A stretch of 64,000 bases of DNA, taken from contig JAYWIR010000011.1 in the NCBI GenBank assembly GCA_036172245.1, positions 744,001 to 808,000 on the forward strand. Direction: 5' to 3'. Below are positions 54,530 through 55,240 of the stretch, piece by piece. Made by a program: the position numbers and the translations under genes. Each line of letters opens with the position of its first letter. Positions within the stretch are counted from its first letter, which is position 1. The notes under the pieces are model-generated. The model was not told where the DNA came from. It ran no database searches and saw only the letters and a program-made list of their open reading frames with translations. Source of the stretch: Raillietiella orientalis. Its lineage: Eukaryota.

Positions 54530-55240
54530 AAGGGCTCGGAGTCCGTTCCTCTCACGCTTGGGAGTCCGTTCCTCTCACGTTTCCTCTCACCTCCACGTTC
54601 TCTCGCACCTCCCACCCTGGTTCTCTCCGAAGGGGAACCCCGAAGGGAATCTCCTTCCTCATTCTCTCCGGAGGGAACCCGGAAAGGATCCGCTTGTAGG
54701 AATTTCTTCTCCGGAGGGAACCCGCAAGGGAACCGCTCCTTGTTCACTCCTCTGAAGAGAACCCCGAAGGGACTTCCGAAACTCAGAAGGGGCGCTGCAG
54801 CTTCCCGCAGGCAATCGCTCTCTCTTGCTTCCTTGTGCACTCTGTGAAGAGGCGACGACTCGGAGGGTCTCCCCCGCAATAGGGGGGGTCCGCTCCTTTG
54901 AACAACTAAAGAGGTGACGTGAGGGCTCCTGATTCATCTTGAAACCATAGGGCCCCCCCAGTGAAGAGGGTCCGCTCTCCGTTACACGACAGGAGGGGGA
55001 ACTCCCCACTCCTTTATTCCTGGGAGGACCCGAAGGTCAACTCCCATTGTTCCGGCCTTCATCGGAGGCCTCCGGCTTTATCCACCGCCGGTGCCACGCC
55101 CGAATGATTAGGCCAATTAGCGCCATCTTGCAGGAGGAACTCGGAACCCAACGACGCAGTGGCGTCAGTTTCTGCCGGAATATTCGAACCCGCGACGCAC
55201 GGTGCCACGCGCGGAAGCCTTAACCACAAAGCCTCCGTCG
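54530..55240 (-). mobile_element. tRNA-headed dispersed repeat (SINE-like), copy 2, with four ~41-nt double-hairpin subrepeats
   Basis: The minus strand begins with A-box-like GGCTTTGTGGTTAAGG (55233-55218) and B-box GCGTCGCGGGTTCGAAT. It then shares colinear blocks with 27005-27460. Subrepeats start near 54621, 54662, 54704 and 54746. Confidence 0.7.

What the first reader, a model, noticed from the sequence alone, without database searches (positions are those of the whole stretch)
54530..55240. Candidate new structured Pol III repeat: tRNA head plus an array of conserved double-hairpin units with variable spacers
Seen: on the - strand, A-box and B-box motifs lead into ~41-nt units whose conserved part (CCCTTCGGGGTTCCCTCCGGAGA-like) folds as two small hairpins, often capped by cUUCGg. 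The units are separated by dissimilar 13-16 nt spacers. The same architecture recurs at 27.0-27.5 kb, including GACCTTCGGGTC versus GACCCTAGGGGGTC, where the loop changes but the stem is kept. Established: cUUCGg is an exceptionally stable RNA tetraloop, and tRNA-SINEs usually have a non-repetitive body. Inference: an undescribed SINE or ncRNA family with a modular protein-binding or processing scaffold. This is the best novel-system candidate in the window.
Basis: partly seen in the sequence, partly recalled or inferred. Interest (0 to 1): 0.72.

Follow-up and report, generated by a model that had tools for sequence, protein, structure and literature searches.

The report
Dead repeat inside dead 28S fragment
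The flagged stretch is an old, worn copy of a dispersed hairpin-unit repeat lying inside a dead piece of the large ribosomal RNA gene, and its supposed tRNA head is partly a ribosomal RNA helix, so it is an ordinary genomic fossil and shows no sign of being a working structured RNA.

Summary
On the minus strand, about 805 nt (c. 55205-54402) interrupt a decayed 28S (LSU) rRNA fragment. LSU core runs 55810-55246 (Rfam 187.7 bits; my LSU profile E 4.9e-86) and resumes collinearly at 54409-54301 (E 3.7e-9).

Only the "B box" (55190-55182) belongs to the repeat.

The repeat recurs at 27003-27547 (+) at 64-72% identity with unrelated flanks, and weakly at 63818-63669 (-). Earlier unchecked notes of this scan describe the same ~0.8-kb family on other pieces of this arthropod-like genome.

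The ~41-nt units are real (30-nt copies spaced 43 and 41 nt). Nothing indicates a selected RNA fold:
- Sense strands fold no better than shuffles (z -0.82 and +1.14).
- The antisense strand folds at least as well.
- 19 compensatory pairs compare with 14.4 ± 4.0 in column-shuffled alignments.
- No tRNA is detected, and I found no tail, target-site duplication or nearby LINE.

Verdict: a decayed SINE-like repeat nested in an rRNA pseudogene. Interest is low.

The parts
55246..55810 (-). 5' part of a decayed LSU (28S) rRNA fragment (Rfam model ~675 onward)
   Evidence: Rfam RF02543 scores 187.7 bits, E 8e-47, for its whole match at 55156-55809. nhmmer with my 34-reference LSU profile matches positions 212-749 at 55790-55246, E 4.9e-86. 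The fragment retains 95 of 115 positions invariant in all 34 references.
55206..55244 (-).
   Evidence: MFE is -23.0 kcal/mol, z -4.27, with 1 of 200 shuffles as good. It lies where the references have the H45 hairpin, between AGCG...CCTATAC and GAGTAGG. Assigning it to LSU and not to the repeat is inference, about two to one.
54402..55205 (-). Copy A of the dispersed hairpin-unit repeat (about 805 nt) interrupting the LSU fragment just 3' of the H45-position hairpin
   Evidence: 836 nt lie between LSU profile positions 749 and 784. The core is homologous to copy B. The edges are uncertain by about 5 nt on the right and up to 40 nt on the left.
55182..55198 (-). T-arm-like remnant (B-box look-alike GGTTCGAAT at 55190-55182); the 3' half of its stem is broken in this copy
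   Evidence: Read directly. It aligns to copy B's intact GCGGG-TTCGAAT-CCCGC.
54626..55200 (-). Core demonstrably shared with copy B
   Evidence: A profile of the A/B core matches 55200-54626. blastn identity is 64-72%.
54622..55048 (-). Array of ~41-nt imperfect-palindrome units; the four best preserved lie at 54773-54622
   Evidence: the repeat finder gives spacings of 43, 41, 41 and 82 nt. Local folding with pair span <=35 gives z -2.18 sense and -2.77 antisense.
54538..54582 (-). Separate 22/23-nt tandem duplication inside the 3' part of copy A
   Evidence: Two 22-nt copies, 95% identical, spaced 23 nt. TRF reports an 18-nt period at 54571-54612.
54301..54409 (-). LSU core resuming collinearly after the insert (GAGTAGG ... 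GATCTTGGTGGTAG stretch)
   Evidence: nhmmer matches profile positions 784-887, E 3.7e-9. No significant LSU signal lies beyond 54301 (334 of 500 shuffles reach the score).
27003..27547 (+). Copy B of the repeat, with no LSU flanks
   Evidence: Searches show the homology. The LSU profile finds nothing in 26000-29500 at E<=100. The flanks are unrelated to copy A's flanks.
26976..27038 (+). Copy B 'head': an intact T-arm-like hairpin (27010-27026) enclosed by a 6-bp acceptor-like stem (26976-26981 with 27027-27032)
   Evidence: The Rfam tmRNA model matches only the 18-nt T arm (17.7 bits). The fold is -23 kcal/mol, z -1.51, with 17 of 200 shuffles as good. ARAGORN calls nothing at 100, 90 or 80% thresholds.
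63669..63818 (-). Possible third, much more decayed copy (C)
   Evidence: The A/B core profile matches positions 55-204 with E 0.0035; the alignment is. This is weak.

Best explanation
The flagged stretch is an old, inert copy (A, about 805 nt) of a dispersed, non-coding, SINE-like repeat family. The family's body is a worn tandem array of ~41-nt imperfect palindromes. This copy lies nested in a dead 28S rRNA fragment, immediately 3' of the hairpin at the helix H45 (D6/ES15L) position.

Shown:
- The LSU core is collinear on both sides of the insert.
- The LSU fragment is truncated at both ends and has decayed.
- The repeat recurs elsewhere in the window with unrelated flanks.

Inferred:
- The family spread through an RNA intermediate copied by a LINE enzyme.
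- Copy A is 5'-truncated just upstream of its T-arm-like motif.
- The units arose by tandem duplication of one palindromic module in master copies, so the hairpins are inherited by descent and are not kept by selection.
- The locus now does nothing.
For: LSU on both sides:
- Rfam RF02543 scores 187.7 bits at 55156-55809.
- My LSU profile, built from 34 of the 95 fetched metagenome loci, matches positions 212-749 at 55790-55246 (E 4.9e-86) and 784-887 at 54409-54301 (E 3.7e-9).
- So 836 nt stand where the references have about 35 positions.

Dead LSU:
- Only model ~675 to ~1490 of 3401 is present.
- 95 of 115 universally invariant positions are retained, against 98.1% for references left out one at a time.
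- No 5.8S or SSU was found.

Hairpin at the H45 position: z -4.27. Its 5' strand starts like the references' H45 5' strand.

Dispersed repeat:
- Copies A and B are 64-72% identical over about 550 nt.
- Their flanks are unrelated: 150 of 200 and 79 of 200 shuffles reach the observed scores.
- There is a weak third copy, E 0.0035.
- Unit number differs between copies. B lacks about 71 nt present in A.
- Earlier notes report the same build at least 8 times elsewhere in this genome (unchecked leads).

No selected fold:
- Sense-strand z scores are -0.82 and +1.14; the antisense strand scores -2.47.
- Local hairpin excess appears in A on both strands but not in B.
- 19 compensatory pairs compare with 14.4 ± 4.0 in 40 column shuffles, 5 of which reach 19.
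Against: - No retroposon hallmarks could be shown here. There is no A-rich or simple-repeat tail at copy A's 3' end (read).
- There is no significant target-site duplication; 710 of 1000 shuffles reach the junction-repeat score.
- No LINE or RT domain was found in 150 of the 167 ORFs of >=90 aa around the copies.
- No tRNA similarity beyond the T arm was found.
- The insert falls within a few bases of a roughly 40-nt variable hairpin in a roughly 675-nt LSU fragment. Under random insertion this has a chance of about 5-8% (my estimate), which leaves room for a link to the rRNA site.
- The left boundary is ambiguous. The hairpin at the H45 position resembles the repeat's own GGAG...CTCC modules and could belong to the repeat.
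- Consensus folding energy of the A/B alignment is somewhat better than column shuffles (-95.6 vs -82.8 ± 5.8; 1 of 40).
- One unit, 55046-55021, folds well (z -2.63) and shows a change on both sides of a pair.
- Copy number in the genome could not be measured because no genome is held.
Confidence: 0.72

Rival explanations
1. The repeat family descends from, or aims at, the 28S D6/ES15L region. Either the array is a lineage-specific expansion of 28S whose fragments were dispersed, or the element inserted into an active rDNA unit at a tolerated site. [quoted passage not shown]
For: - The insert lies exactly at the most variable spot of this LSU stretch, with collinear core on both sides.
- No tRNA origin can be shown for the head.
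- The left-junction hairpin could belong to either partner.
- A precedent exists for TE-like sequence in the D6 region of a working 28S (PMC12324441, passages read).
Against: - Copy B has no LSU signal in 26000-29500 at E<=100. One marginal flank match (2 of 200 shuffles) is not backed by the profile.
- The whole-window LSU scan at E<=10 hit nothing near copy C.
- The insert lies 3' of a closed hairpin and not in its apical loop, where expansion segments grow (the rule is established knowledge).
- The LSU fragment is a truncated pseudogene.
- None of the listed earlier notes links the family to 28S (unchecked).
Confidence: 0.08
2. One reading: an undescribed Pol III-transcribed SINE or ncRNA whose double-hairpin units form a selected modular scaffold for protein binding or processing.
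For: - Copy B has a clean T-arm-like hairpin enclosed by an acceptor-like stem.
- Copy A shows local hairpin excess (z -2.18; 0 of 40 shuffles as good).
- The first unit keeps its stem between copies while the loop changes and one pair changes on both sides.
- CTTCGG is mildly enriched inside the elements.
Against: - The antisense strand folds as well or better. That fits DNA palindromes and not an RNA-level constraint.
- Copy B shows no local excess (z -0.27).
- Whole-element sense folds are no better than shuffles.
- The four best units give z between -0.95 and +1.20.
- Compensatory changes do not exceed column-shuffled alignments.
- The copies differ by about 30% and by whole units.
- This copy's A box lies in the hairpin at the 28S helix position.
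Confidence: 0.05
3. The sequence is not a mobile element. It is a local minisatellite that grew inside an rDNA pseudogene, and the 27-kb copy arose by segmental duplication or gene conversion.
For: - No tail, target-site duplication or partner LINE is detectable.
- The array is internally repetitive.
- Both clear copies lie in GC-rich non-coding DNA of one 64-kb window.
Against: - The shared part includes about 160 nt of non-repetitive sequence 5' of the array and ends sharply. No flank homology exists on either side.
- The two copies are in opposite orientation, 27 kb apart.
- Earlier notes report the same build on other pieces of the genome (unchecked).
Confidence: 0.07

Closest known systems
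tRNA-related SINEs with head, body and tail, as defined in SINEBase (Vassetzky and Kramerov 2013, PMC3531059; 'Definitions' and 'Data acquisition' passages read)
   Same: It is a short (<1 kb), interspersed, non-coding repeat. It has a T-arm/B-box-like motif near the 5' end and a body of unknown origin. Copies differ by internal duplications and deletions.
   Different: No tRNA similarity over 60 nt could be shown, and no tail was seen. At about 0.8 kb it is longer than any of SINEBase's 175 families (75-662 nt without tail). Copy number was not measurable here.
CHRS SINE, the 'quasioligomer' described in SINEBase (PMC3531059, passage read)
   Same: [quoted passage not shown]
   Different: The CHRS motif is about 20 nt. 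Here the unit is about 41 nt and is an imperfect palindrome. No sequence comparison was possible with these tools.
Dispersed rRNA pseudogene fragments and rRNA/retroelement mosaics, noted repeatedly in this genome by earlier notes (unchecked)
   Same: It is a truncated, decayed piece of 28S lying outside any rDNA unit and associated with a mobile-element sequence.
   Different: Here the mobile sequence interrupts the 28S piece with collinear core on both sides. This is nesting, not an end-to-end fusion to a LINE or SINE.
[quoted passage not shown]
   Same: Foreign, possibly transposon-derived sequence sits in the D6/H45 neighbourhood of 28S.
   Different: Those are working rRNA genes whose insert is processed out. 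Here the 28S piece is a truncated pseudogene and the insert lies beside the helix, not within it.

Membership tests
SINE (SINEBase definition, PMC3531059) | Short (<1 kb) interspersed, non-tandem genomic repeat | tested here: met
   There are two clear copies, 27 kb apart and in opposite orientation, with unrelated flanks, plus one weak copy. The shared core is about 550-575 nt and the insert in the LSU about 805 nt.
SINE (SINEBase definition, PMC3531059) | [quoted passage not shown] | not testable with these tools
   No genome is held for this window and no sequencing run was listed. Earlier notes mention many copies, but they are unchecked.
SINE (SINEBase definition, PMC3531059) | Head at least 60% identical to a tRNA, 5S rRNA or 7SL RNA over at least 60 nt | tested here: not met
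   ARAGORN found 0 genes and 0 of 3 heads at 100% and 90% thresholds. Hits at 80% and 70% sit within noise of 51 and 285 hits per window. No Rfam tRNA, 5S or 7SL hit appears at E<=10. Only an 18-nt T-arm match was found. No tRNA bank was aligned directly.
SINE (general) | 3' tail of A-rich or simple repeats, and target-site duplications | tested here: not met
   No tail is seen at copy A's 3' junction. The junction direct repeat is not above shuffles (710 of 1000). Old age could have erased both.
SINE (general) | Pol III transcription and LINE-dependent retroposition | not testable with these tools
   No run was available to lay reads on. No LINE or RT domain was found in 150 of 167 nearby ORFs.
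Functional eukaryotic LSU rRNA gene | Full-length model match with conserved core, inside an rDNA unit with 5.8S and SSU | tested here: not met
   Only model 675 to ~1490 of 3401 is present. 95 of 115 invariant positions are kept. No 5.8S or SSU was found at E<=1.
rRNA expansion segment (ES15L/D6) | Extra sequence extends the helix (H45) from its apex and is present in the working rRNA | tested here: not met
   The insert lies 3' of a closed 15-bp hairpin with a 4-nt loop. Presence in the working rDNA could not be tested.
Structured RNA family under selection | Covariation and folding beyond controls, specific to one strand | tested here: not met
   With only two usable sequences, power is low.

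The most novel reading that the evidence does not exclude
The hairpin-unit repeat may have a real link to the 28S D6/ES15L site. It may have entered an rDNA unit that was still active, at a spot where foreign sequence is tolerated and can be processed out, as proposed for naked mole-rat 28S. Alternatively the whole family may descend from such an rDNA insert. In that case this locus would be a fossil of how an rRNA variable region and a mobile element exchange sequence.
Probability: 0.06. Interest if true: 0.5.

Novelty: new member of a known kind. Interest (0 to 1): 0.14.

Why it matters
It matters little as biology, but it is a useful correction. A-box and B-box look-alikes plus small CTTCGG hairpins suggested a new structured Pol III RNA. 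In fact one 'box' lies in the hairpin standing at a ribosomal RNA helix position, and the hairpins are inherited palindromic modules of a worn repeat.

The family is somewhat unusual: about 0.8 kb, longer than any SINEBase family, with a ~41-nt modular body. It could deserve a proper genome-wide description. This locus adds only the detail that one copy is nested in a 28S pseudogene at the D6 site.

Tried and rejected
- Whole genome: none is held, so genome-wide copies, a consensus and termini could not be obtained.
- Sequencing runs: none was listed for 54250-55850 and no RNA holder was listed.
- Look-ups of earlier findings near this place, by sequence (twice) and among relatives returned nothing.
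- My first idea was that the array is an enlarged expansion segment of a divergent 28S. I dropped it because copy B has no LSU flanks, the insert lies outside the H45-position hairpin, and the LSU piece is a truncated pseudogene.
- LSU-like flanks at copy B: one marginal Smith-Waterman hit at 27998-28082 (2 of 200 shuffles) was not backed by the LSU profile. I treat it as chance.
- Shared sequence upstream of the T-arm motif among copies A, B and C was not above shuffles (294, 297 and 461 of 500).
- Shared 3' tails of A and B were not above shuffles (79 of 200).
- Target-site duplication at copy A's junctions was not significant (710 of 1000).
- LSU continuation beyond 54301 was not significant (334 of 500).
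- Terminal inverted repeats (the DNA-transposon alternative): none bracket either copy.
- Coding context: 150 of 167 ORFs of >=90 aa in 46-64 kb and 22-34.5 kb gave no Pfam family at E<=0.001; 17 were not scanned. Among 14 long ORFs only GH20 and one sub-threshold hit appeared.
- The pair counts on the RNAalifold structure are circular as evidence. I replaced them with the column-shuffle control.
- Two literature searches for SINEs with internal tandem hairpin units gave only the SINEBase CHRS precedent. No Dfam, Repbase or SINEBank comparison is possible with these tools, so 'undescribed' cannot be claimed.
I replaced it with strand-folding runs and lighter scripts.

Full report
WHAT IS THERE

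Read on the minus strand, the flagged stretch does show a GGTTCGAAT motif (55190-55182) followed by a run of short GC-rich palindromic units. Its surroundings change the picture.

Rfam finds a eukaryotic LSU rRNA match at 55156-55809 (-), 187.7 bits, covering model positions 675-1445 of 3401. This is the only match in the window that reaches a gathering score. ARAGORN finds no tRNA in the window.

To test whether rRNA sequence resumes after the array, I fetched 95 LSU-bearing metagenome loci with a short conserved motif. I built a DNA profile from the 34 loci that had enough flank. With all filters off, the profile matches positions 212-749 at 55790-55246 (E 4.9e-86) and positions 784-887 at 54409-54301 (E 3.7e-9). 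It matches nowhere else at E<=10 apart from one chance-level hit (E 0.64 at 8.7 kb). So 836 nt stand where the references have about 35 positions.

That spot is the hairpin called H45, capped by expansion segment ES15L, in the D6 region. I checked this nomenclature in passages of PMC12324441.

THE rRNA PIECE IS DEAD

- It starts at about model position 675 and ends at about 1490.
- No 5.8S or SSU is found at E<=1 in 22-64 kb.
- Its best reference is only 72% identical over 562 nt.
- Of 115 positions invariant in all 34 references, it keeps 95, changes 14 and has lost 6. References left out one at a time keep 98.1% on average.
- Earlier notes of this scan report many decayed rRNA scraps beside retroelements in this genome. 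These are unchecked leads.

THE 'tRNA HEAD'

The 39 nt at 55244-55206 fold into one 15-bp hairpin with a UGGU loop (-23.0 kcal/mol, z -4.27, 1 of 200 shuffles as good).

This hairpin directly follows the LSU core. Its 5' strand begins like the references' H45 5' strand, and it has the length expected for H45. I therefore read it as the 28S helix, at odds of about two to one. The alternative is that it is a module of the repeat and that H45 was lost.

The B box belongs to the repeat. In the copy at 27 kb it is the loop of a clean hairpin GCGGG-TTCGAAT-CCCGC (27010-27026), enclosed by a 6-bp acceptor-like stem. The only model that scores is the 18-nt T arm of tmRNA, at 17.7 bits.

No tRNA model scores at E<=10. 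ARAGORN calls none of the three heads at 100% or 90% thresholds. At 80% and 70% it 'genes' in the whole window, which is noise.

THE REPEAT

- Copy A (55198-54641, -) matches copy B (27005-27532, +) at 64-72% identity (alignments).
- The flanks are unrelated. The 100 nt upstream of the T-arm motif are no more alike among copies than shuffles. The tails are not demonstrably shared.
- A profile of the shared core finds one further weak copy at 63818-63669 (-), E 0.0035.
- B lacks about 71 nt that A has inside the array, so unit number varies between copies.
- Earlier notes describe the same build on other pieces of this genome at least eight times: length ~0.72-0.83 kb, a tRNA-like head and 10-14 units of ~41 nt. 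They judged it an old SINE-like repeat. I did not check those notes, but they changed my first reading, which was an enlarged expansion segment.
- The one clear gene in the window, an intronless GH20 hexosaminidase ORF, has arthropod clusters as its nearest neighbours.

THE UNITS

- The register is real but worn. The repeat tool finds 30-nt copies x3 spaced 43 and 41 nt, 31-nt x2 spaced 41, and 25-nt x2 spaced 82.
- Autocorrelation peaks at 41, 84 and 124 nt with z 2.2-3.2.
- Tandem Repeats Finder does not call the array.
- Each unit is better described as one imperfect palindrome (GGAG..GGxx-loop-xxCC..CTCC) plus a purine-rich spacer than as two hairpins.
- CTTCGG is not enriched in the GC-rich half of the window (35 observed, 36.8 expected). 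It is only mildly enriched in the elements.

IS THE FOLD SELECTED?

- Whole-element sense folds are no better than dinucleotide shuffles: A z -0.82 (21 of 100 as good) and B z +1.14 (91 of 100). The antisense strand of A scores z -2.47, and a GC-rich control scores 0.11.
- With pairs limited to 35 nt, A shows an excess on both strands (sense -2.18, antisense -2.77; 0 of 40 shuffles each). B shows none (-0.27 and -0.72), and the controls give +0.28 and +0.91. This is what DNA-level palindromes inherited by duplication would give.
- RNAalifold on A and B lists 19 pairs changed on both sides, and slid controls are low. That structure was chosen from these two sequences, so the test is circular. 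In 40 column-shuffled alignments the count is 14.4 ± 4.0, and 5 of the 40 reach 19. The consensus energy is somewhat better than shuffles (-95.6 vs -82.8 ± 5.8; 1 of 40).
GACC-TTCG-GGTC versus GACCC-TAGG-GGGTC keeps the stem, and an outer pair changes on both sides. It is a single case.
- The four best-preserved units fold no better than shuffles (z +0.23, +1.00, -0.95, +1.20).

HOW IT GOT THERE

The simplest reading is that a copy of the repeat landed in an already dispersed 28S fragment, or in an rDNA unit that was later broken up. The copy was probably 5'-truncated just upstream of its T-arm motif. Its insertion point is at the 3' foot of the hairpin at the H45 position.

I could not show retroposon hallmarks here:
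- There is no tail.
- There is no significant target-site duplication (710 of 1000 shuffles reach the score).
- No RT or LINE domain appears in 150 of 167 nearby ORFs.
- No terminal inverted repeats are present either.

That the insert falls within a few bases of a roughly 40-nt variable hairpin in a roughly 675-nt fragment has a chance of about 5-8% under random insertion (my estimate). This keeps alive, at low odds, a link between the family and the D6 site. A precedent is the TE-like D6 insert proposed for naked mole-rat 28S (PMC12324441, passages).

Against that link:
- Copy B has no LSU flanks, and the whole-window LSU scan hit nothing near copy C.
- The insert lies beside the helix and not in its apex.
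- None of the listed earlier notes ties the family to 28S (unchecked).

COMPARISON WITH KNOWN KINDS

By the SINEBase definitions (PMC3531059, passages), the element meets 'short interspersed repeat'. It fails 'at least 60% identity to a tRNA over 60 nt' as far as I could test. Copy number could not be measured. A and B boxes are, in the authors' words, only an indication.

At about 0.8 kb it exceeds the length range of the 175 families listed there (75-662 nt). A body made of a tandemly repeated short motif has a precedent in CHRS (~20-nt motif, more than 10 repeats). It therefore works like a SINE with a quasi-oligomeric body, but membership is not shown.

No Dfam, Repbase or SINEBank comparison is possible with these tools, so I do not claim that the family is undescribed.

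VERDICT

The locus is an inert, decayed copy of a dispersed SINE-like repeat nested in a 28S pseudogene. Interest is low.

Noticed in passing
window 35143-37050 (+): An uninterrupted 635-aa ORF carries a Glyco_hydro_20 domain (E 3e-08). Its nearest ESM-Atlas clusters are arthropod beta-N-acetylhexosaminidase / hexosaminidase D-like. It appears to be an intronless gene lying between GC-rich non-coding blocks.
   Followed up: partly
window 1-22000 versus 24000-64000: There is a sharp compositional change. The first 22 kb are 28-37% GC. The rest is patchy at 39-65% GC, with no Pfam domain in 150 scanned ORFs of >=90 aa.
   Followed up: partly
window 63669-63818 (-): A possible third, strongly decayed copy of the hairpin-unit repeat (profile E 0.0035). 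It is close to the window end.
   Followed up: partly
window 54538-54582: A 22-nt segment is duplicated in tandem (95% identical, spacing 23 nt) within the 3' part of copy A. It is not present in copy B.
   Followed up: no
window 55089-55102 and 55200-55213: A 14-nt direct repeat (13 of 14 identical) has one copy at the left edge of the insert and the other 111 nt inside it. It could be chance or a trace of how the 5' end was formed.
   Followed up: no
window 52600-53100: A roughly 500-nt low-complexity block of degenerate ACGTGT/CACATG-type repeats gives weak sub-threshold mir-297 and mir-3149 matches. It is probably a decayed microsatellite-like tract.
   Followed up: no
window 56010-56063 (-): A unit-like motif lies upstream of the LSU fragment. 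It resembles the repeat's modules but is not significant (profile E 2.5).
   Followed up: partly
window 28090-28113 (+): An A-rich stretch followed by a run of seven T lies about 1.1 kb downstream of copy B's head. The first TTTT on copy B's sense strand is at about 27674. No link to the repeat's 3' end could be shown.
   Followed up: no
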